This document shows, one piece after another, positions 4,644-63,561 of a DNA stretch of 64,000 nucleotides (the first letter of the stretch is position 1; every line of letters starts with the position of its first letter). A program made the position numbers and the translations under genes. The notes beneath the pieces are model-generated. The model worked only from the letters and a program-made list of their open reading frames with translations. It did no database searches and was not told the DNA's origin. The stretch spans positions 30,683 through 94,682 of the forward strand of contig JABHAL010000015.1 of assembly GCA_018674305.1 (NCBI GenBank). The letters are read 5' to 3'. The stretch comes from Candidatus Falkowbacteria bacterium (GTDB lineage: Bacteria > Patescibacteriota > Patescibacteriia > UBA11705 > JABHMO01).

Positions 4644-5591
4644 ATGATAAATGAAAAACAAATCAAGATAGTGTTTCTGGGATCAGCAACTTTTTCTGTT
4701 CCAATTTTAATGGAATTAATAAAGCGATATACGGTTGTGTCTGTGGTAACAGAAATTGATAAACCAGGAGGTCGGGGCTTGGAAATTGTTTCGCCTCCAA
4801 CAAAAGCTTTATCTCAACAACAAGGTATTCCAGTTTATCAACCGTTAAGTCTACAGAAAAACCCAAAACTTTTGGAAAAATTAGCCGGTTTAAATCCAGA
4901 TCTCTGTGTGGTGGCAGCCTACGGTAAAATATTGCCATCCGAATATTTAAACTTTACTCGGCATGGGTGTTTGAATGTGCATCCTTCACTGCTACCAAAG
5001 TACCGAGGCGCTTCTCCGATTCAGAGCGCTTTTTTAAATTCTGACATAGAAACTGGTTGCAGTATTATTTTAATGGATGAAGGCATGGATACTGGCGATA
5101 TTTTGGTTCAAAAAAGCGTACAAATTGATCCTGATTGGGGCTATAGAAAGCTGGAGCAAAAACTGTCTTTGTTGGGGGCTCAATTGTTGGCGAAAAGGAT
5201 CCCAGATTATATTAAGGGTAATCTTAGTTTTGATATTCAGGATGATCATAAAGCAAGCTTTTGTTACAAGGTATCAAAAGAAGACGGCTTGATTAATTGG
5301 GCTCATTCTGCGAAAAAAATCATTGGAAAGGTTAAAGCATTTGAAGTTTGGCCTGGAAGTTATACATATTTCGGAAATAAAAAATTGGACATAATTAATG
5401 CCCAAATAGCAGAGATCCCCAATGAAAAGGTTGACTTGGGTAAAGTTATGAAACAAAATGGAAAAATTTTCGTGAGAACAGGTTCAGGTTTTATTGAGTT
5501 GTTTGAAGTTAGGCCTGAGGGTAAAAATAAAATGTCAGTTAAGGATTTTATAAATGGACATCAGGATTTTGTGGGTTCTGTCTTGGGGTGA
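4644..5591 (+). CDS. fmt: Methionyl-tRNA formyltransferase
   Basis: N-terminal formyltransferase domain (IVFLGS..., HPSLLPKYRGASPIQ) plus C-terminal Fmt domain; immediately follows def. Confidence 0.9.
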   Translation: MINEKQIKIVFLGSATFSVPILMELIKRYTVVSVVTEIDKPGGRGLEIVSPPTKALSQQQGIPVYQPLSLQKNPKLLEKLAGLNPDLCVVAAYGKILPSEYLNFTRHGCLNVHPSLLPKYRGASPIQSAFLNSDIETGCSIILMDEGMDTGDILVQKSVQIDPDWGYRKLEQKLSLLGAQLLAKRIPDYIKGNLSFDIQDDHKASFCYKVSKEDGLINWAHSAKKIIGKVKAFEVWPGSYTYFGNKKLDIINAQIAEIPNEKVDLGKVMKQNGKIFVRTGSGFIELFEVRPEGKNKMSVKDFINGHQDFVGSVLG

Positions 5592-12893: not shown

Positions 12894-13091
12894 ATTATAA
12901 TTTAAGTATAGCAATTTAAGTTAAAGAGTTCAAATGAAAAATAACCACTTGTGATTGTCGAGATTCCGGATCGTAGTCCGGAATGACGCTTGGGGGTGTT
13001 TTGAGGCATTGGGTAAAATCTGGAAGGACACTTTTGGTAACAGTTTTTTATGTTTGAATCTTCTTCTTTATTGTTATTCCATTCCTGGCTT

Positions 13092-13123
13092 GCCTGCCTA
13101 CCGTAGTTTTAACGAAGGTAGGA
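13092..13123. repeat. 31-nt hairpin element (cctacc-gtagttttaacgaa-ggtagg), member of a family also found at 63465-63495
   Basis: 26/31 identity to the reverse complement of 63465-63495, with a compensatory double change in the stem. Confidence 0.5.
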
Positions 13124-13153
13124 CCCGGAATCTAAAGCGTCTAAAGCGAATTT

Positions 13154-20149: not shown

Positions 20150-20941
20150 CTATTTCTTCTTCTTTGTTACAGTTTTCTTTTTTGGAGCTGTTTTTTTAGT
20201 AGCTGCTTTCTTTGCTGCCGGTTTCTTTTTTGGAGCAGCCTTCTTGGTAGCTACTTTCTTTGCAGTAGGTTTCTTTTTTGGAGTAGCCTTCTTTTTTGTT
20301 ACTGCCTTTTTCTTTACTACAGCTTTCTTTGGAGCTGGTTTTGAAGGTGTTGCCTTTACTTCTGAAGACGGAGGAGAATAAGGTTTTGGTTTTTGTTCTT
20401 GGTAAGAAGATCGTCCACCTTGGTCACCACGTGAAGGTCTTGAGTTTTGTCCTTGATAAGAAGATCGTCCGCCTCGTCCACCACGTGAAGAGCTTGAATT
20501 TCGCCCTTGATATGAAGATCGGCCACCTTGTCCGTATGCGGGTCTTGAGTTTTGTCCATGATAAGATGATCGTCCGCCGTGACTTTGTGGGCGTGAGTAA
20601 GATTGGCTTTTGATCCCAAGTGCCTTTAGAATTTGGTCTAATTTAGCATTCAGAGTTTCAAAATCAGGTCTTGATCCACCTGCTCCACCTGAACCGCCAC
20701 TTGAGTCGCTTCTTTTTATACCACCAAAACATTTATTACAATAAATTGGCTTATCACCGCTTGGGTTGAAAGGCACTTCACAGCGCTGTCCACAAGCAGC
20801 ACAAACCGCCTTGAATAAAGGACGGTCAGAGTTTTTTCTATTTTCTTGGAAACATTTATCACAGAAAACCGGTTTGTCTCCAGAGGGTGTAAACGGAAGT
20901 TCACAACTATTTCCGCATTTATCACATTTTGCATTAAACAT
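20150..20941 (-). CDS. Nucleic-acid-binding protein: two CxxC...CxxC zinc ribbons, an RGG/SY-QG-N-SRP low-complexity repeat region and a Lys/Ala-rich histone-H1-like tail
   Basis: CDKCGNSCELPFTPSGDKPVFCDKCF and CAACGQRCEVPFNPSGDKPIYCNKCF; GGRSSYQGQNSRP repeats; C-terminal AKKAATKK repeats. Confidence 0.6.
   Translation of the reverse strand: MFNAKCDKCGNSCELPFTPSGDKPVFCDKCFQENRKNSDRPLFKAVCAACGQRCEVPFNPSGDKPIYCNKCFGGIKRSDSSGGSGGAGGSRPDFETLNAKLDQILKALGIKSQSYSRPQSHGGRSSYHGQNSRPAYGQGGRSSYQGRNSSSSRGGRGGRSSYQGQNSRPSRGDQGGRSSYQEQKPKPYSPPSSEVKATPSKPAPKKAVVKKKAVTKKKATPKKKPTAKKVATKKAAPKKKPAAKKAATKKTAPKKKTVTKKKK
20390..20620. repeat. Imperfect tandem DNA repeats (~39-nt unit, about 5 copies) encoding the GGRSSYQGxNSRP region
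   Basis: Recurrent ...gatcgtccgcc...gtccttgataagaagatcgtcc... units visible in the sequence. Confidence 0.55.
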
Positions 20942-52289: not shown

Positions 52290-52423
52290 AAATTTTATTT
52301 AGTGATTTATCAATGATATTTTATCACAAATAAACACATCAAGGCAAACATAATTCAATTGACAATTGATTAAATTTGTGCAAAAATACAATATTAATGA
52401 ATTTTAACAACTGGAGGAATATA

Positions 52424-53224
52424 ATGAAACTGGCGATCATCTCTGATGTCGGTGGAAATCTTGTTGCCTTGCAAGCACTATTTGCAGACCTACACAAACA
52501 TAAAGTTAATGCGATCTTGTGCCTGGGAAATACTATTGGTTATGGTCCAAACCCACGCGAGTGCTGGGAATTGACCATGGAACGAAGAATGGTTCTCACT
52601 CGCGGCGAAATGGAACATTGGCTTGGTCAAGGCATTTATCCACCAAATCAAACACCACAGAAATATCTTTTTCTGGAATTTACTCAAAAGGCCCTAATCC
52701 AAAAGCAACTGGATCAAATGTCTCAAATGACAAAAGTGAAAAAGATCCCCTTGGACAACAAAAAGGGTACGACTGGTCAATCGTTGCTAATGGGTCACTC
52801 AAGTTTACTTGCGAATGAAGTTGGTCAATCAGTAAATACCACCGGCCGTATCTATACGGAATTTGAAATTCTAGACAAGCACTTTCAAGAAGCTAATATT
52901 CTACTTCTTGGCAACAACACTTTTCCGATCTTTATGTCATCACGGGGTCGGTACGTTGAACGTACCTGCGATAAATTCAATCAACGTCACCATTTGCACA
53001 GTGATCATAAATATCTGATCAACCCTGGTGCAATTGGCCGTCCCATGGATGGACATGTGCTCAACAGTCGAGAGATGATGCCTTTCACCTACGCAATTCT
53101 GACAATTGAAGATAATGACGTCAGTGTTGTTTACTATCGCGTTCACTATGACCCGACTGAACACTTGAAGGCTATGACTGAAAAAGGTTTTCCGCCTGAG
53201 TTCATTCGTAAATTCACAGGTTAA
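52424..53224 (+). CDS. Calcineurin-like metallophosphoesterase homologue with substituted metal-binding residues (probable pseudo-enzyme); GC-rich
   Basis: IISDVGGN (expected DxHGN), LGNTIGYGPNP (expected GDxxDRG), LLGNNT (expected GNHE); GGAGG ribosome-binding site before the ATG at 52424. Confidence 0.5.
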   Translation: MKLAIISDVGGNLVALQALFADLHKHKVNAILCLGNTIGYGPNPRECWELTMERRMVLTRGEMEHWLGQGIYPPNQTPQKYLFLEFTQKALIQKQLDQMSQMTKVKKIPLDNKKGTTGQSLLMGHSSLLANEVGQSVNTTGRIYTEFEILDKHFQEANILLLGNNTFPIFMSSRGRYVERTCDKFNQRHHLHSDHKYLINPGAIGRPMDGHVLNSREMMPFTYAILTIEDNDVSVVYYRVHYDPTEHLKAMTEKGFPPEFIRKFTG

Positions 53225-53256
53225 AACAACTACAACGGATCTCACAAGGTCAACTT

Positions 53257-53295
53257 ACCTGCCGAAGCTCAACAGAGCAAAGGCAGGTTTTTTAT
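53257..53295 (+). terminator. Rho-independent terminator (acctgcc...ggcaggt tttttt)
   Basis: 7-bp stem plus T6. Confidence 0.7.
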
Positions 53296-62683: not shown

Positions 62684-62839
62684 TTACTTTGTTTCTTTGT
62701 GCGAAGTATGAATTTTACATTTCTTGCAATATTTCTTCAGTATCAATTTTTCCTTTATCTTTTTCTTATTGCGTCGTGAATGATAATTTATACTTCGACA
62801 CTCTGAACATTGTAATTTGATCAGATTGTCTTGTGACAT
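62684..62839 (-). CDS. rpmG: 50S ribosomal protein L33 (51 aa: MSQDNLIKLQCSECRSINYHSRRNKKKIKEKLILKKYCKKCKIHTSHKETK); missed by the ORF track
   Basis: Own translation of the minus strand; zinc-ribbon CxxC...CxxC and KLxLxKYCxxCxxHTxHKETK match bL33. Confidence 0.85.
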   Translation of the reverse strand: MSQDNLIKLQCSECRSINYHSRRNKKKIKEKLILKKYCKKCKIHTSHKETK

Positions 62840-62909: not shown

Positions 62910-62980
62910 GGCTGCGCCATTCGATATGTCCGTTGGAGCTTTACGCGAAAACGGAAGCTCCGACTCATGGAGGAGCGAAG
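62910..62980. repeat. Left copy of the 40-nt direct repeat (ggctgcgccattcga|agctccgactcatggaggagcgaag), interrupted by a 31-nt hairpin insertion (62925-62955)
   Basis: Identical to 63305-63344 except for the inserted tatgtccgttggagctttacgcgaaaacgga. Confidence 0.7.
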
Positions 62981-62990
62981 TTACAGTTTC

Positions 62991-63248
62991 CTATTTTTTA
63001 ATAAAACGTTTATTTGTAAATGCAATACCCGATGCAGTTTTAAGATATGTTTCGAAGTTCAAAGCCATTATTTTATCATCAAATGCACAATAAAATTTCA
63101 ATTTCCAAGGTTTGTATTTATTCGTATATTTACTTCTTCCATCATTATGGTGCTTCAGTCTATCAAAAACACTAATTTCTGTAAATCCCTTATATAAATA
63201 TCCATGATTTATACTTTCAATCAAATAAACAAAATAGGGTTTTTGCAT
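62991..63248 (-). CDS. GIY-YIG nuclease family protein (YhbQ/UPF0213-like, 85 aa)
   Basis: YFVYLIES...GYLYKGFT...RLKHHNDG...PWKL motifs. Confidence 0.65.
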   Translation of the reverse strand: MQKPYFVYLIESINHGYLYKGFTEISVFDRLKHHNDGRSKYTNKYKPWKLKFYCAFDDKIMALNFETYLKTASGIAFTNKRFIKK

Positions 63249-63304
63249 ATAGATACGGCCCTTCTTCGCGTTAAGCTACGAAGGACATTCTTCGCTTTTT
63301 TTAC

Positions 63305-63344
63305 GGCTGCGCCATTCGAAGCTCCGACTCATGGAGGAGCGAAG
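63305..63344. repeat. Right copy of the 40-nt direct repeat flanking the GIY-YIG ORF, abutting the tRNA-Thr 3' end
   Basis: Exact match to the two halves of 62910-62980. Confidence 0.7.
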
Positions 63345-63346
63345 AA

Positions 63347-63422
63347 TGGAGCCGACGGAGGGACTCGAACCCACGACCAATAGTTTACAAAACTACTGCT
63401 CTACCAACTGAGCTACGTCGGC
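63347..63422 (-). tRNA. tRNA-Thr (anticodon UGU), 76 nt, CCA-encoded
   Basis: Manually folded: acceptor GCCGACG/CGUCGGC, D GCUC-AGUUGGUA-GAGC, anticodon stem GUAGU/ACUAU with loop UUUGUAA, T-arm GUGGG-UUCGAGU-CCCUC (one U-U mismatch), discriminator U, CCA. Confidence 0.75.
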
Positions 63423-63448: not shown

Positions 63449-63561
63449 CACGACCAATAGTTTATCTACCTACGTTAAAACTCCGGCAGACAGGCAAAAC
63501 TACTGCTCTACCAACTGCTGCGTCCTCCGAAGCTTTATGCGAAGGCGGAAACTACGTCGGC
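63449..63561 (-). pseudogene. Truncated 5' copy of tRNA-Thr (positions 1-51) interrupted by two ~31-nt insertions (D-stem, 63518-63549; anticodon between nt 35/36, 63465-63495)
   Basis: Segments GCCGACGTAG / CAGTTGGTAGAGCAGTAGTTTTG / TAAACTATTGGTCGTG identical to the intact gene; the T-arm and 3' half are absent. Confidence 0.5.

What the first reader, a model, noticed from the sequence alone, without database searches (positions are those of the whole stretch)
13092..13123. Family of ~31-nt hairpin elements (6-bp stem, 14-15-nt loop with G-N-A-G...UUUA) with compensatory stem changes, present 50 kb apart
The anticodon insertion 63465-63495 read on the minus strand (tctgcc-ggagttttaacgta-ggtaga) matches 13092-13123 (cctacc-gtagttttaacgaa-ggtagg) at 26/31 positions. 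The stem differs by a compensatory double change and a G-U to A-U change, the signature of a conserved RNA/DNA hairpin. The D-stem insertion 63518-63549 and the insertion splitting the left direct repeat 62925-62955 are a second related pair (tccgtt-ggagctttacgcgaa-aacgga versus tcctcc-gaagctttatgcgaa-ggcgga, 22/31 identical). These are not regularly spaced, so not CRISPR, and are too short for a known IS. They look like a MITE/REP-like or retron/intron-derived hairpin family.
Basis: seen in the sequence. Interest (0 to 1): 0.6.

Follow-up and report, generated by a model that had tools for sequence, protein, structure and literature searches.

The report
Mobile 30-nt hairpins tied to GIY-YIG nuclease
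The short look-alike hairpins are real copies of a tiny DNA element found across many bacterial phyla that inserts itself into the loops of other hairpins (including tRNA genes), and it is tightly linked to a miniature nuclease gene that sits just after tRNA genes, a pairing I could not find described in the searched literature.

Summary
The window (a Candidatus Falkowbacteria genome) holds five canonical copies and three variants of a ~30-nt element. Each has a 4-nt leader (CYTG), a variable 6-bp stem and a conserved core (G-N-A-G-Y...R-C-G-N-A).

Collection scans that left the stem interior unspecified found more than 120 further copies in at least 12 phyla and in viral contigs. Of these, 120 of 125 had complementary stems, with 51 distinct stems in all.

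Filled and empty site pairs show precise insertion without target duplication. Insertions sit in one orientation, in unpaired parts of other hairpins: the element's own internal loop (GN^AG) and apex, tRNA loops, and other palindromes. Some lie in-frame inside genes.

No Rfam family matches. No Y1/RAYT transposase is nearby. The only neighbour that recurs beyond generally abundant families is an 80-85-aa Slx1/UPF0213-like GIY-YIG nuclease.

Searching from that protein alone, 46 of 98 loci carry the hairpin within 200 nt upstream. In 46 of 87 loci a co-oriented tRNA lies within 400 nt upstream.

Best reading: REP-like satellite elements of a tRNA-3'-end GIY-YIG cassette. The nuclease's role as mobiliser is inferred, not shown.

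The parts
13093..13122 (+). Element A (the finding): CCTG leader, stem CCTACC/GGTAGG, core GTAGTTTTAACGAA. It lies between queA and an AMMECR1-family gene.
   Evidence: Sequence; covariance model 45.1 bits, E 1.6e-11; Pfam for the neighbouring genes.
13081..13131 (+). Outer palindrome ATTCCTGG...CCCGGAAT. Element A (with CTTG before it) sits in its loop. An uninterrupted relative, ATTCCGGA-TCGTAG-TCCGGAAT, lies at 12963-12984.
   Evidence: Read directly. It fits the general enrichment of insertions in the apical loops of pre-existing hairpins.
62910..62980 (+). Left copy of the 40-nt repeat. This is the 5' part of a long-apex family member (X') and lacks the 3' stem. It is interrupted by element B at GA^AGCT.
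   Evidence: The uninterrupted copy is at 63305-63344.
62925..62955 (+). Element B: TATG-TCCGTT-GGAGCTTTACGCGAA-AACGGA. A 31-nt insertion nested in X', in the same orientation.
   Evidence: covariance model 32 bits, E 2e-7.
62991..63248 (-). 85-aa GIY-YIG nuclease gene of the Slx1/UPF0213 type.
   Evidence: Pfam GIY-YIG, E 4.6e-13. NCBI names the identical protein 'GIY-YIG nuclease family protein [Candidatus Falkowbacteria bacterium]'. AlphaFold2 model pLDDT 92. Best folds are UPF0213 and the Slx1 nuclease domain. A close homologue (L016) matches SLX1 by sequence at E 1e-5.
63259..63289 (-). Element B'': AATG-TCCTTC-GTAGCTTAACGCGAA-GAAGGG. It is in the same orientation as the GIY-YIG gene and ends 10 nt before its ATG.
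   Evidence: covariance model 32 bits. The same position is seen in other loci.
63307..63349 (+). Long-apex family member X: CTGCG-CCATTC-GAA-GCTCC-GACTCATGGA-GGAGC-GAA-GAATGG. It is antisense to the tRNA. Its last three bases are the complement of the tRNA's CCA end.
   Evidence: covariance model 15.1 bits, E 0.04. The same tRNA-abutting antisense element recurs in many protein-seeded loci and in L258 and L260.
63347..63422 (-). Intact tRNA-Thr(UGU), immediately upstream of and co-oriented with the hairpin and GIY-YIG cassette.
   Evidence: ARAGORN; Rfam tRNA 71.9 bits.
63449..63561 (-). 5'-partial pseudo-copy of tRNA-Thr (about positions 1-52). It carries A' in the anticodon loop and B' in the D arm, and so serves as a natural filled site next to the empty site in the intact tRNA.
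   Evidence: Alignment by eye to the intact tRNA. ARAGORN and Rfam do not call it.
63465..63494 (-). Element A': a clean 30-nt insertion between G35 and U36 of the pseudo-tRNA anticodon (GTAGTTTTG^TAAAC), with no target duplication.
   Evidence: covariance model 39.2 bits.
63518..63549 (+). Element B': a 32-nt insertion in the D-arm region of the pseudo-tRNA, antisense to it.
   Evidence: covariance model 33.2 bits.
53254..53287 (+). Variant copy CTTA-CCTGCC-GAAGCTCAACAGAGCAAA-GGCAGG followed by a T run. It probably serves as the terminator of ORF 52376-53224.
   Evidence: Covariance model 18 bits, E 0.005; sequence.

Best explanation
**What it is.** The 31-mers belong to a widespread family of about 30-nt DNA hairpin insertion elements. 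Each copy has four parts:
- a 4-nt leader, consensus C-Y-T-G;
- a 6-bp stem of free sequence;
- a conserved core, G-N-A-G-Y ... R-C-G-N-A. This forms a 3x3 internal loop (GNA opposite GNA) closed by G-C and Y-R pairs;
- a 4-5-nt apex. Some copies have a longer upper stem instead.

**What is shown.**
- Copies are inserted precisely, with no target-site duplication and in a fixed orientation.
- They land in unpaired parts of existing hairpins: the GN^AG internal loop and the apex of other family members, loops of tRNA genes, and unrelated palindromes.
- Most copies are intergenic. Some lie in-frame inside genes; the main type is 30 nt and is stop-free in 4 of 6 frames.
- The elements cluster in a conserved cassette: a tRNA or tmRNA-like gene, then an antisense element whose stem contains the CCA end, then an inverted copy of CCANCCTTCGC, then a sense element, then about 7-35 nt, then the ATG of an 80-85-aa GIY-YIG nuclease gene.
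- The window also lies near an ORF-less derivative of this cassette in the same genome.

**What is inferred.** The solo 30-nt copies are non-autonomous satellites of this cassette. The Slx1-like, structure-specific nuclease would recognise the conserved internal loop on extruded or single-stranded DNA. It would make the cuts that free the element and open target loops, and host ligation or repair would finish the job. The hairpin next to the ATG has a GGAGG-like 3' stem and may also throttle translation of the nuclease.

**Likelihoods.** A real, structured, insertion-derived family linked to the cassette: about 0.85-0.9. The GIY-YIG protein as the mobilising enzyme: about 0.5. The chemistry of integration is unknown.
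For: **Structure and covariation.**
- Stem-blind pattern scans of viral and genome collections returned hits whose unspecified stem bases pair in 120 of 125 cases, 83 of them perfectly.
- There are 51 different stems.
- Pair counts on 134 distinct copies: 90% paired, 212 double-change cells against 63 in shuffles, and slid controls 39-50% paired.

**Insertion nature.**
- Filled and empty pairs occur in the window for the tRNA anticodon, the D arm and the 40-nt repeat, and in L129.
- Precise in-silico excision restores an intact outer element in 14 of 149 insertions. Two further raw matches did not span the junction and were discarded. The control rate is 4 of 582.
- All restored outer elements are in the same orientation as the insert. 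Eight insertions are at GN^AG and five at the apex.
- Flanks form a stable hairpin with the junction in the apical loop in 19% of cases against 6% of local controls.

**Spread.** Patescibacteria, Bacteroidota, Planctomycetota, Cloacimonadota, Spirochaetes, Dependentiae (TM6), Verrucomicrobiota, Omnitrophota, Chloroflexota and Proteobacteria, at GC 32-63%.

**Link to the nuclease.**
- GIY-YIG is the top recurrent protein family in 120 hairpin-seeded loci. No Y1 transposase is present.
- All six members of the FExYLKxGSGxAF subfamily (five loci plus the window) have an element within about 150 nt.
- The reverse test used only a back-translated protein motif. It gave 105 covariance-model hits in 567 kb. 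46 of 98 loci have one within 200 nt upstream of the start, 11 of 110 within 200 nt downstream, and only about 10 hits lie farther than 600 nt away.

**Cassette architecture.**
- A co-oriented tRNA lies within 400 nt upstream in 46 of 87 loci, and all 49 such tRNAs are on the same strand.
- The inverted repeat of CCANCCTTCGC is present in 28 of 47 loci against 0.2% for shuffled probes.
- CPR relatives keep the architecture, including one placed after a tmRNA-like 3' end. That identification is by eye and was not checked with a tool.
- An ORF-less duplicate of the cassette leader lies about 6 kb beyond the window in the same genome.

**Nuclease type.**
- The catalytic residues Y, Y, R, H and E are invariant.
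- Sequence hits to SLX1.
- The model's best folds are UPF0213 and Slx1 rather than I-TevI.

**Published context.** CPR rRNA genes carry non-intron insertions that encode GIY-YIG proteins, plus short ORF-less insertions at the tops and bases of stem-loops (PMC11270868).
Against: - No experiment or polymorphism shows movement. All assemblies of this species are identical at these sites.
- The five window copies all differ, so nothing points to recent transposition in this genome.
- GIY-YIG enzymes are hydrolytic nucleases with no known strand-transfer activity, so the nuclease alone cannot explain precise integration.
- About 95% of hairpin-seeded loci show no GIY-YIG gene within about 4 kb.
- Co-occurrence at whole-genome level was not tested.
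- Elements upstream of the gene occur in both orientations (51 same, 35 opposite). This fits a landing-pad or junkyard model as well as a cargo model.
- The covariance model misses many long-apex forms, so the counts are lower bounds and the family's limits are fuzzy.
Confidence: 0.6

Rival explanations
1. The hairpins are landing pads rather than cargo. The GIY-YIG cassette homes to, or recombines at, pre-existing hairpins at tRNA 3' ends. These hairpins provide the cleavage site and short homology. The hairpins themselves spread by some other, unidentified route.
For: - Antisense elements abut tRNA 3' ends even where no nuclease gene follows (L036, L037, L069).
- The window cassette is flanked by two copies of element X.
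- Other cassettes are flanked by duplicated tRNA 3' ends (L074, L121).
- Orientation upstream of the gene is mixed.
Against: - It does not explain how solo copies enter anticodon loops, ORFs and other elements precisely and in one orientation.
- It does not explain why no other candidate enzyme recurs near them.
Confidence: 0.2
2. It is a REP/REPIN-type or IS200/IS605-type system. A Y1 (HUH) single-strand transposase encoded elsewhere in each genome would move the hairpins, and the GIY-YIG linkage would be incidental.
For: - The size is REP-like (20-40 nt) and the palindrome is imperfect with conserved mismatches.
- It has a G(T/A/G)AG motif, no target duplication and strand-specific insertion. 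It also inserts into other palindromes, as reported for some REPs (PMC3733652).
Against: - No Y1 transposase family recurs in 120 hairpin-seeded loci.
- The conserved end is CYTG, not GTAG or CGTC, and GNAG is internal.
- The element is about 150-fold concentrated just upstream of the GIY-YIG gene. That figure is my own estimate from the counts.
Confidence: 0.12
3. It is a host-selected structural or regulatory motif rather than a mobile element. Possible roles are a protein-binding site, an mRNA 5'/3' stabiliser, a translational operator of the nuclease gene, or a tRNA-processing signal. It would be kept by selection and spread with its gene.
For: - A sense copy ends 7-12 nt before the ATG in many cassettes and has a GGAGG-like 3' stem.
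- One window variant carries a T run after a gene.
- A copy lies directly after a phage major-tail-like gene.
- The core is nearly invariant across phyla.
Against: - Copies occur in both orientations, although the core is asymmetric.
- They interrupt a pseudo-tRNA, other copies and ORFs.
- Only 4% are followed by a T run.
- No Rfam match was found.
- A regulatory role at the nuclease gene is compatible with mobility and is not an alternative to it.
Confidence: 0.1
4. They are small RNA-level intervening sequences, like archaeal bulge-helix-bulge introns or RNase III-excised intervening sequences. They would be tolerated in tRNA and rRNA genes because they are removed from the transcript.
For: - The window insertions are in an anticodon loop and a D arm.
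- CPR rRNA genes hold many short unexplained insertions at stem-loops (PMC11270868).
Against: - The interrupted tRNA copy lacks its T arm and 3' acceptor strand, and an intact tRNA-Thr lies beside it.
- The organism is bacterial.
- There is no bulge-helix-bulge motif.
- Most copies are intergenic or translated in frame.
Confidence: 0.03
5. The resemblance is chance similarity in AT-rich DNA.
For: The elements are short, and only four copies were originally noted.
Against: - The reversed-sequence control gives 1 hit against 153.
- Covariance-model E values are down to 1e-11.
- More than 120 independent copies have paired stems.
Confidence: 0.01

Closest known systems
REP / REPIN elements with RAYT (TnpA-REP) transposases
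   Same: - 20-40-nt imperfect palindromes, dispersed and mostly intergenic, occasionally inside genes or inside other palindromes.
- They flank the gene of the enzyme thought to move them (the REPtron layout).
- No target duplication.
(PMC3733652)
   Different: - The conserved terminal tag is CYTG, not GTAG or CGTC.
- The conserved G-N-A-G lies inside the hairpin.
- The linked gene is an 80-aa GIY-YIG nuclease, not a Y1/HUH transposase.
- The cassette is fixed to tRNA 3' ends.
- The same core is shared across more than 10 phyla, whereas REPs are lineage-specific.
IS200/IS605 family and its palindrome-associated derivatives
   Same: - Asymmetric element with a short leader next to a hairpin foot.
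- Strand-specific insertion without target duplication.
- A hairpin that may sequester the ribosome-binding site of the enzyme gene.
The family traits are from my own knowledge.
   Different: - No TnpA or TnpB was found.
- No fixed tetranucleotide lies 5' of the insertion point.
- The element is one 30-nt hairpin, not two distinct ends.
Cyanobacterial small dispersed repeats (SDR; 'Very small mobile repeated elements in cyanobacterial genomes', Elhai et al. 2008)
   Same: Elements of only 21-27 nt that appear mobile, form hairpins and are found nested in one another. No enzyme is known. This description is from my own knowledge; the paper is only cited, not held, in the library.
   Different: - Different sequence and hosts.
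- Here a specific candidate enzyme and a conserved cassette are identified.
Mitochondrial GC clusters of yeast, double-hairpin elements of fungi, and Rickettsia palindromic elements (RPE)
   Same: GC-rich palindromic mini-insertions in AT-rich genomes. They can nest, sit in rRNA or tRNA regions, or be translated in frame in proteins. This description is from my own knowledge.
   Different: - These occur in organelles or a single genus.
- They are 30-150 nt with other consensus sequences.
- RPEs end in CGTC (PMC3733652).
- None has a documented link to a small GIY-YIG gene at tRNA ends.
Non-intron insertion sequences in CPR rRNA genes (J Bacteriol 2024, PMC11270868)
   Same: - The same bacterial radiation.
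- Insertions that are not group I or II introns encode GIY-YIG proteins.
- Many short ORF-less insertions are reported, mostly at the tops or bases of stem-loops of a structured-RNA gene.
   Different: - That work concerns rRNA genes.
- In the passages I read, it does not mention a 30-nt hairpin family, its consensus, nesting, or tRNA-end cassettes.
- Whether its short insertions include this family was not tested.
Slx1 / UPF0213 (YhbQ-like) GIY-YIG nucleases
   Same: - The window protein's model superposes on Slx1 nuclease domains (TM 0.64-0.71, rmsd 2-3 Å, 27-32% identity) and on UPF0213 BH0048.
- A close homologue (L016) hits SLX1 by sequence at E 1e-5.
- Slx1 cuts branched and stem-loop DNA (PDB entry titles).
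   Different: - It is only the 80-aa catalytic core, with no RING or Slx4 partner.
- It has a distinct C-terminal motif, FExYLK(T/S)GSGxAFAK.
- No NCBIfam model covers it.
- Its activity is untested.

Membership tests
REP / REPIN-RAYT | Short (20-40 nt) imperfect palindrome present in many dispersed copies | tested here: met
   Hairpins of 30-32 nt. There are 8 copies or variants in the 64-kb window, at least 2 more in the next 10 kb, and more than 150 in the fetched loci. Per-genome copy number was not measured.
REP / REPIN-RAYT | Conserved GTAG (or CGTC) tetranucleotide at one terminus (PMC3733652) | tested here: not met
   The terminal leader is C(83%)-Y-T(95%)-G(96%). G-N-A-G is internal, after the 6-bp stem.
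REP / REPIN-RAYT | Associated Y1/HUH tyrosine transposase (RAYT) gene flanked by the repeats | tested here: not met
   No such family recurs in the 120 hairpin-seeded loci. The flanked gene is GIY-YIG. A RAYT elsewhere in these genomes cannot be excluded.
MITE | Terminal inverted repeats matching a parent IS, plus a target-site duplication | tested here: not met
   Filled and empty pairs show no duplication. The element is a single 30-nt hairpin. The 'parent' cassette has no transposase of a known IS family.
IS200/IS605-type single-strand transposition | Insertion 3' of a fixed tetra- or pentanucleotide, and a TnpA Y1 enzyme | tested here: not met
   Bases 5' of the insertions vary (GA, GT, GG, AT, TTT, TTG...). 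No TnpA was found. Strand specificity and the lack of duplication do resemble this family.
CRISPR array | Regularly spaced direct repeats separated by unique spacers | tested here: not met
   Copies are irregularly placed, on both strands, with different stems.
Intrinsic terminator | GC-rich hairpin followed by a T run, at gene ends, in the sense orientation | tested here: not met
   Only 6 of 152 copies have a run of at least 4 T within 10 nt. One window variant (53254-53287) does.
Known structured RNA families (Rfam 15) | Match to a curated covariance model | tested here: not met
   Only the tRNAs reach gathering scores. Nothing relevant appears at E up to 10 around the elements.
tRNA introns (group I or bulge-helix-bulge) | Interrupts an otherwise complete, functional tRNA gene and carries the ribozyme core or a bulge-helix-bulge motif | tested here: not met
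   The host copy lacks its T arm and 3' acceptor strand. It is not called by ARAGORN or Rfam. The 30-nt insert has no such motif.
GIY-YIG nuclease superfamily, Slx1/UPF0213 branch (the linked protein) | GIY...YIG motifs with catalytic Tyr, Arg, His and Glu, and the alpha/beta GIY-YIG fold | tested here: met
   Pfam PF01541, E 4.6e-13. Y8, Y19, R30, H34 and E66 are invariant. Model pLDDT is 92. Top folds are BH0048 (UPF0213) and Slx1.
GIY-YIG homing endonucleases (I-TevI / Seg type) | Catalytic domain joined to a sequence-specific DNA-binding domain, encoded in an intron or free-standing in phage, with homing to a cognate allele | tested here: not met
   The protein is the 80-85-aa catalytic core only. 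Fold similarity to I-TevI is weak (E about 1.6). A YhbQ-like GIY-YIG protein from L074, not the window protein, scores below cut-off on the NCBIfam group I intron endonuclease model. Homing was not testable.
Nuclease as the mobilising enzyme of the hairpins (functional claim) | The enzyme binds and cuts the element and its target, and mobility depends on it | not testable with these tools
   Only genomic linkage was shown.

The most novel reading that the evidence does not exclude
This would be a previously unrecognised class of prokaryotic mobile DNA. A minimal, structure-specific Slx1-like GIY-YIG nuclease is encoded in a cassette that parasitises tRNA and tmRNA-like gene 3' ends. It would act as the 'transposase' for 30-nt hairpin elements. 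These elements insert into single-stranded loops of DNA hairpins, including structured-RNA genes and protein-coding genes. They occur across more than 10 bacterial phyla, including the CPR, and in their phages. It could also explain the unexplained short insertions in CPR rRNA genes.
Probability: 0.35. Interest if true: 0.85.

Novelty: new variant of a known kind. Interest (0 to 1): 0.72.

Why it matters
Tiny palindromic repeats such as REPs, small dispersed repeats and mitochondrial GC clusters are common, but only REPs have a candidate enzyme. Here a 30-nt element has several unusually clear properties:
- an insertion rule: loops of hairpins, one orientation, no duplication;
- a nearly invariant core across phyla;
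- a specific, very small candidate enzyme of a nuclease family not known to drive transposition in bacteria.

If the link is causal, three things follow.
- It adds a new enzyme class to bacterial mobile DNA.
- It offers an explanation for short insertions in the tRNA, rRNA and protein genes of CPR bacteria.
- It provides a compact structure-specific nuclease and substrate pair that can be tested directly with oligonucleotides.

Even if the link is not causal, the tRNA, hairpin and GIY-YIG cassette is a conserved architecture that is not annotated in Rfam or NCBIfam, and current annotation ignores it.

Tried and rejected
- **Rfam.** The search at gathering scores, and at E up to 10 around all copies, returned only tRNAs.
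- **The repeat finder.** At default sensitivity it did not pick up the family, because the copies are too short and divergent.
- **Alignment of other assemblies of the same species.** These were aligned to look for empty sites, but all are identical.
- **The search for related loci.** I replaced it with a back-translated motif pattern.
- **BLAST against GenBank phages.** The 31-mer gave only partial hits at chance level.
- **First hairpin-enclosure statistic.** Counting any pairs that bridge the junction did not discriminate (58% against 55%). I replaced it with a stricter test requiring an apical loop and a stable fold.
- **Pairing of core positions 2 and 14.** This was tested and is not consistent, with 65 of 134 copies unpaired. 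The region is an internal loop, not a continuous helix.
- **Stems templated by the target sequence.** I considered this for the tRNA-abutting copies, whose stems contain CCA, and rejected it. Stems of insertions with known empty sites show no match to their flanks (L129).
- **Template switching by microhomology.** Rejected, because the junctions share no microhomology.
- **Literature searches.** Searches for the motifs, and for GIY-YIG combined with REP, hairpin or tRNA, found no description of this family. The library holds open-access papers only, so this is absence of evidence.
Full report
**1. Observation**

| Copy | Coordinates | Sequence |
|---|---|---|
| A | 13093-13122 (+) | CCTG-CCTACC-GTAGTTTTAACGAA-GGTAGG |
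| A' | 63465-63494 (-) | CCTG-TCTGCC-GGAGTTTTAACGTA-GGTAGA |
| B | 62925-62955 (+) | TATG-TCCGTT-GGAGCTTTACGCGAA-AACGGA |
| B' | 63518-63549 (+) | CTGCG-TCCTCC-GAAGCTTTATGCGAA-GGCGGA |

Three of the four copies are demonstrable insertions, because an uninterrupted version of the host sequence lies nearby.
- A' splits the anticodon (GTAGTTTTG^TAAAC) of a 5'-partial pseudo-copy of tRNA-Thr (63449-63561). The intact tRNA-Thr lies at 63347-63422.
- B' splits the D arm of the same pseudo-copy.
- B splits the left copy of a 40-nt repeat, whose right copy (63305-63344) is intact.

None of these insertions has a target-site duplication.

I found a fifth canonical copy, B'', at 63259-63289 (-): AATG-TCCTTC-GTAGCTTAACGCGAA-GAAGGG. 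It ends 10 nt upstream of an 85-aa ORF. The 40-nt 'repeat' is itself a long-apex member of the family: CTGCG-CCATTC-GAA-GCTCC-GACTCATGGA-GGAGC-GAA-GAATGG at 63307-63349.

**2. More than chance**

- A scan for the loop motif flanked by at least 5/6 stem pairs gives 153 hits in about 1 Mb (window plus fetched loci). The same sequences reversed give 1 hit.
- I scanned public collections with patterns that fix only the core and the outermost stem bases.
  - Viral contigs gave 5 of 5 (B type) and 3 of 5 (A type) hits with complementary stems.
It gave 125 matches, of which 83 have 6/6 and 37 have 5/6 stem pairs, although the four inner stem positions were free.
- The copies carry 51 distinct stems.
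- On an alignment of 134 distinct copies, the lower 6-bp stem and a Y-R pair in the core covary (U-A in the A type, C-G in the B type). There are 212 double-change cells against 63 ± 14 in shuffles, and no shuffle of 500 reached the observed value. Slid controls pair at only 39-50%, against 90% observed.
- Core positions 2 and 14 do not pair consistently. The core is therefore a GNA/GNA 3x3 internal loop closed by G-C and Y-R pairs, with a 4-5-nt apex.
- A covariance model (R1), run over the window with filters off, finds the five copies at 32-45 bits. The next hits are a variant at 53254-53287 (18 bits; followed by a T run after an ORF) and the long-apex element (15 bits). The five window copies were 5 of the 134 training sequences, so this is slightly circular.
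- No Rfam family matches.

**3. Host and spread**

The window is identical to contigs of MAG GCA_018665965.1 and to many Logan and ENA assemblies. NCBI names the identical small protein as coming from Candidatus Falkowbacteria, so the host is a CPR/Patescibacteria bacterium with 34% GC.

Hits come from:
- many Patescibacteria lineages and Bacteroidota;
- Balneolaceae, Ignavibacteria and Cloacimonadota;
- Planctomycetota, Verrucomicrobiota, Kiritimatiellia and Lentisphaerae;
- Omnitrophota, Spirochaetes and TM6/Babeliales;
- Chloroflexota and several Proteobacteria.

Host loci range from 32 to 63% GC. The core is nearly invariant across all of them.

**4. Insertion behaviour**

- **Leader.** The four bases before the stem are C(83%)-Y-T(95%)-G(96%). 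T and G were fixed by the search pattern for most copies, but C-Y was not. The filled and empty pairs show that the leader belongs to the insert.
- **Nesting.** In-silico excision of leader plus hairpin restores a complete family member in 14 of 149 distinct insertions. Two further raw matches did not span the junction and were discarded. The rate at displaced control positions is 4 of 582.
  - The restored outer element is always in the same orientation as the insert.
  - Eight insertions are at G-N^A-G (the internal loop) and five are at the apex.
  - Element B in the window follows the first rule (GA^AGCT).
  - L129 holds an empty and a filled copy of the same outer element side by side.
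- **Own-loop resemblance.** The anticodon site, GTAGTTTTG^TAAAC, resembles the element's own loop.
- **Other hairpins.** The joined flanks fold into a stable hairpin with the junction in the apical loop in 19% of cases, against 6% of local controls. Element A itself sits in the loop of ATTCCTGG...CCCGGAAT. An uninterrupted relative of that palindrome lies 110 nt away.
- **tRNA genes.** Elements are about eight-fold enriched within 150 nt of tRNA genes. Several abut the tRNA 3' end in antisense orientation.
- **Coding sequence.** Only 25% of copies lie inside long ORFs, against 66% of random positions. Those that do are read in stop-free frames. Examples are ...LSDEVLTESD... and, in antisense, P-A-S-V-K-T-T-A-G-K inserted between aminoacyl-tRNA-synthetase-like motifs (judged by eye) in L061. 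The A type is exactly 30 nt and is open in 4 of 6 frames.
- **Terminators.** Only 4% of copies are followed by a T run.

**5. What travels with it**

I clustered all ORFs of the 120 hairpin-seeded loci. The family found in the most loci is a small GIY-YIG protein (10-11 loci). It ranks ahead of response regulators and ABC ATPases, which are abundant in any genome. No Y1/HUH transposase, reverse transcriptase or other transposase recurs.

The GIY-YIG proteins fall into two groups.
- The group with the C-terminal motif FExYLK(T/S)GSGxAFAK has an element within about 150 nt in 6 of 6 cases, the window included.
- The YhbQ-like group generally does not.

For the reverse test I scanned metagenome contigs with a DNA pattern back-translated only from that protein motif (120 loci, plus 2 viral loci).
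- R1 found 105 hits at E<0.01 in 567 kb.
- 46 of 98 loci with enough sequence have an element within 200 nt upstream of the start codon.
- 11 of 110 loci have one within 200 nt downstream.
- Only about 10 hits lie more than 600 nt from the gene.

By my estimate from these counts, this is a local enrichment of roughly 150-fold.

**6. The cassette**

- In the protein-seeded loci, 46 of 87 genes have a tRNA within 400 nt upstream. All 49 such tRNAs are on the gene's strand. They are of many identities, and spacers are mostly 65-150 nt.
- The spacer is stereotyped, in this order:
  1. The tRNA's CCA forms the first three bases of an antisense element, CCANCC-TTCGC...GCTTCG-GNTGG-CARG.
  2. Farther on lies an inverted copy of CCANCCTTCGC. 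A match of at least 10/11 is present in 28 of 47 loci, against 0.2% for shuffled probes.
  3. A sense element directly follows that inverted copy, and usually ends 7-35 nt before the ATG.
- The 3' stem of the sense element is often GGAGG-like.
- The window has exactly this layout on its minus strand: tRNA-Thr, X, GCGAAG-AATG, B'', 10 nt, ATG.
- The spacer folds as two hairpins, at -34 kcal/mol and z = -2.5.
- CPR relatives of the window protein keep the layout. One follows a tRNA-Lys. Another follows a CCA-ending 3' sequence that I judged tmRNA-like by eye, without a tool check.
- About 6 kb beyond the window's right end, the same genome has an ORF-less duplicate of the cassette leader and tail. 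It is about 85% identical over about 110 nt (my estimate from the alignment) and retains the last codons of the gene. It lies next to a tRNA 3' fragment that carries yet another hairpin in its T loop.
- Some cassettes are flanked by duplicated tRNA 3' ends (L074, L121).

The cassette therefore looks like a duplicative unit with deletion derivatives, and the solo 30-nt hairpins are its smallest relatives.

**7. The protein**

- Pfam assigns it to GIY-YIG (E 4.6e-13). No NCBIfam model covers it.
- The catalytic Tyr, Tyr, Arg, His and Glu are invariant.
- The nearest solved sequences to a close homologue (L016) are SLX1, a structure-specific endonuclease (E 1e-5), and UPF0213 proteins.
- An AlphaFold2 model (pLDDT 92) superposes best on UPF0213 BH0048 and on Slx1 nuclease domains (TM 0.64-0.71, rmsd 2-3 Å). 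It matches I-TevI only weakly.
- It is the bare catalytic core. Any sequence or structure specificity must come from this domain and its short C-terminal helix.

**8. How it most likely works**

Shown:
- a structured, covarying hairpin family;
- precise, duplication-free, orientation-specific insertion into unpaired parts of hairpins;
- tight, asymmetric linkage to a tRNA-end GIY-YIG cassette.

Inferred:
- The nuclease recognises the conserved GNA/GNA internal loop on extruded or single-stranded DNA.
- It cuts at the element's boundaries and in target loops, and host functions complete integration.
- The ATG-proximal hairpin also limits translation.

I put about 0.85-0.9 on the first block and about 0.5 on the nuclease being the mobiliser. 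How the strands are joined is unknown. GIY-YIG enzymes hydrolyse DNA and are not known to transfer strands.

Rivals:
- The hairpins are landing pads for a homing cassette (0.2).
- A Y1 transposase encoded elsewhere moves them (0.12).
- It is a purely regulatory or structural motif (0.1).
- They are RNA-level intervening sequences (0.03).
- Chance similarity (0.01).

**9. Comparison with known systems**

- **REP-RAYT.** The system works most like REP-RAYT: small imperfect palindromes around the gene of their presumed enzyme, with insertion into other palindromes (PMC3733652). It fails two defining REP features that I tested: the terminal GTAG or CGTC tag and the Y1 transposase.
- **Other tiny repeats.** It resembles cyanobacterial small dispersed repeats, mitochondrial GC clusters and Rickettsia palindromic elements in size, nesting or in-frame insertion. 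Those comparisons rest on my own knowledge.
- **CPR rRNA insertions.** The nearest published context I found is that CPR rRNA genes contain non-intron insertions encoding GIY-YIG proteins, plus short ORF-less insertions at the tops and bases of stem-loops (PMC11270868). The passages I read do not mention this hairpin family.
- **Literature searches.** Full-text searches for the motifs, and for GIY-YIG with REP, hairpin or tRNA terms, found no description. The library is open-access only.

**10. Verdict**

I class this as a new variant of a known kind: miniature palindromic mobile repeats, but with a different partner enzyme and a conserved tRNA-linked cassette. If the nuclease proves causal, it would be a new class of mobile element.

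Limits of this work:
- There are no polymorphism or activity data.
- The covariance model under-detects long-apex forms.
- Genome-level co-occurrence was not tested.

Noticed in passing
window 63449-63561 (-): A 5'-partial duplicate of tRNA-Thr (about positions 1-52, with no T arm or 3' acceptor strand) lies directly upstream of the intact tRNA-Thr. A 5' rather than 3' tRNA fragment is unusual for integration scars. It may record a past recombination at this cassette hotspot.
   Followed up: partly
L003:3285-3440 (same genome, about 6 kb beyond the window's right end): An ORF-less duplicate of the GIY-YIG cassette: antisense long-apex element, spacer, B-type hairpin, and a tail that keeps the last codons of the gene. 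It lies upstream of hisS. Just before it is a tRNA 3' fragment, GGGTTCAG[35-nt GC-rich hairpin insert]AGTCCC...CCA, which is a T-loop insertion.
   Followed up: partly
window 12963-12984 and 13081-13131: A second small palindrome family, ATTCCGGA...TCCGGAAT. One copy is empty (loop TCGTAG). The other carries element A in its loop. A tandem ctaaagcg-t-ctaaagcg lies at 13133-13149.
   Followed up: no
window 62684-62839 (-): A 51-aa ribosomal protein L33 gene is called in the NCBI MAG (L004:10410-10565, Pfam Ribosomal_L33). It falls below the ORF-length cut-off I used for the window. It lies just downstream of the cassette.
   Followed up: no
window 20160-20592 (ORF 20150-20941, -): Two internal tandem-repeat blocks, with 15/18-nt and 54-nt periods, lie inside one ORF. 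This suggests a repetitive low-complexity protein.
   Followed up: no
L061:4615-4644 (Patescibacteria MAG JBBUDV010000020.1): An antisense A-type element lies in frame in a 576-aa ORF fragment. It adds PASVKTTAGK between motifs I judged by eye to look like a class I aminoacyl-tRNA synthetase (...DTWFSSALWPFATLGW / FYPTNVLSTARDII...). This would be a 10-aa insertion in an essential enzyme.
   Followed up: partly
L024, L049, L082, L113 (L024/L049/L082: Falkowbacteria MFGJ01; L113: source not checked): The same element, CTTG-TCCATC-GAAGTTTTAACGAA-GATGGA (TCCAGC stem in L113), sits in the loop of a repeated palindrome, CACCCTGAA...TTCAGGGT. Copies of that palindrome flank a YhbQ-like GIY-YIG gene in L082. 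It is a composite repeat unit.
   Followed up: no
L258:360-560: A relative of the window cassette sits directly after a CCA-ending 3' sequence (GGACGCGGGTTCAATTCCCGCCATCTCCACCA) that I judged to be a tmRNA-like 3' end by eye. No tool was run on it. If correct, the cassette targets tRNA-like 3' ends generally.
   Followed up: partly
L006:1083-1113, also L007/L008/L010 and L009: B-type elements occur in small viral contigs (5.7-9.7 kb). In L006 the element lies 2 nt after the stop of a major-tail-like gene (PHROG 584, E 1e-9) and before a terminator-like hairpin. No match was found in GenBank phages of cultured hosts.
   Followed up: partly
L022:1659-1688 and 4907-4936 (Ignavibacteria MAG): Two identical 30-nt elements, CCTG-CCCGCC-GTAGTTTTAACGAA-GGCGGG, sit in unrelated flanks on one contig. 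This is the kind of pair expected from recent copying, unlike the five divergent copies in the window.
   Followed up: no
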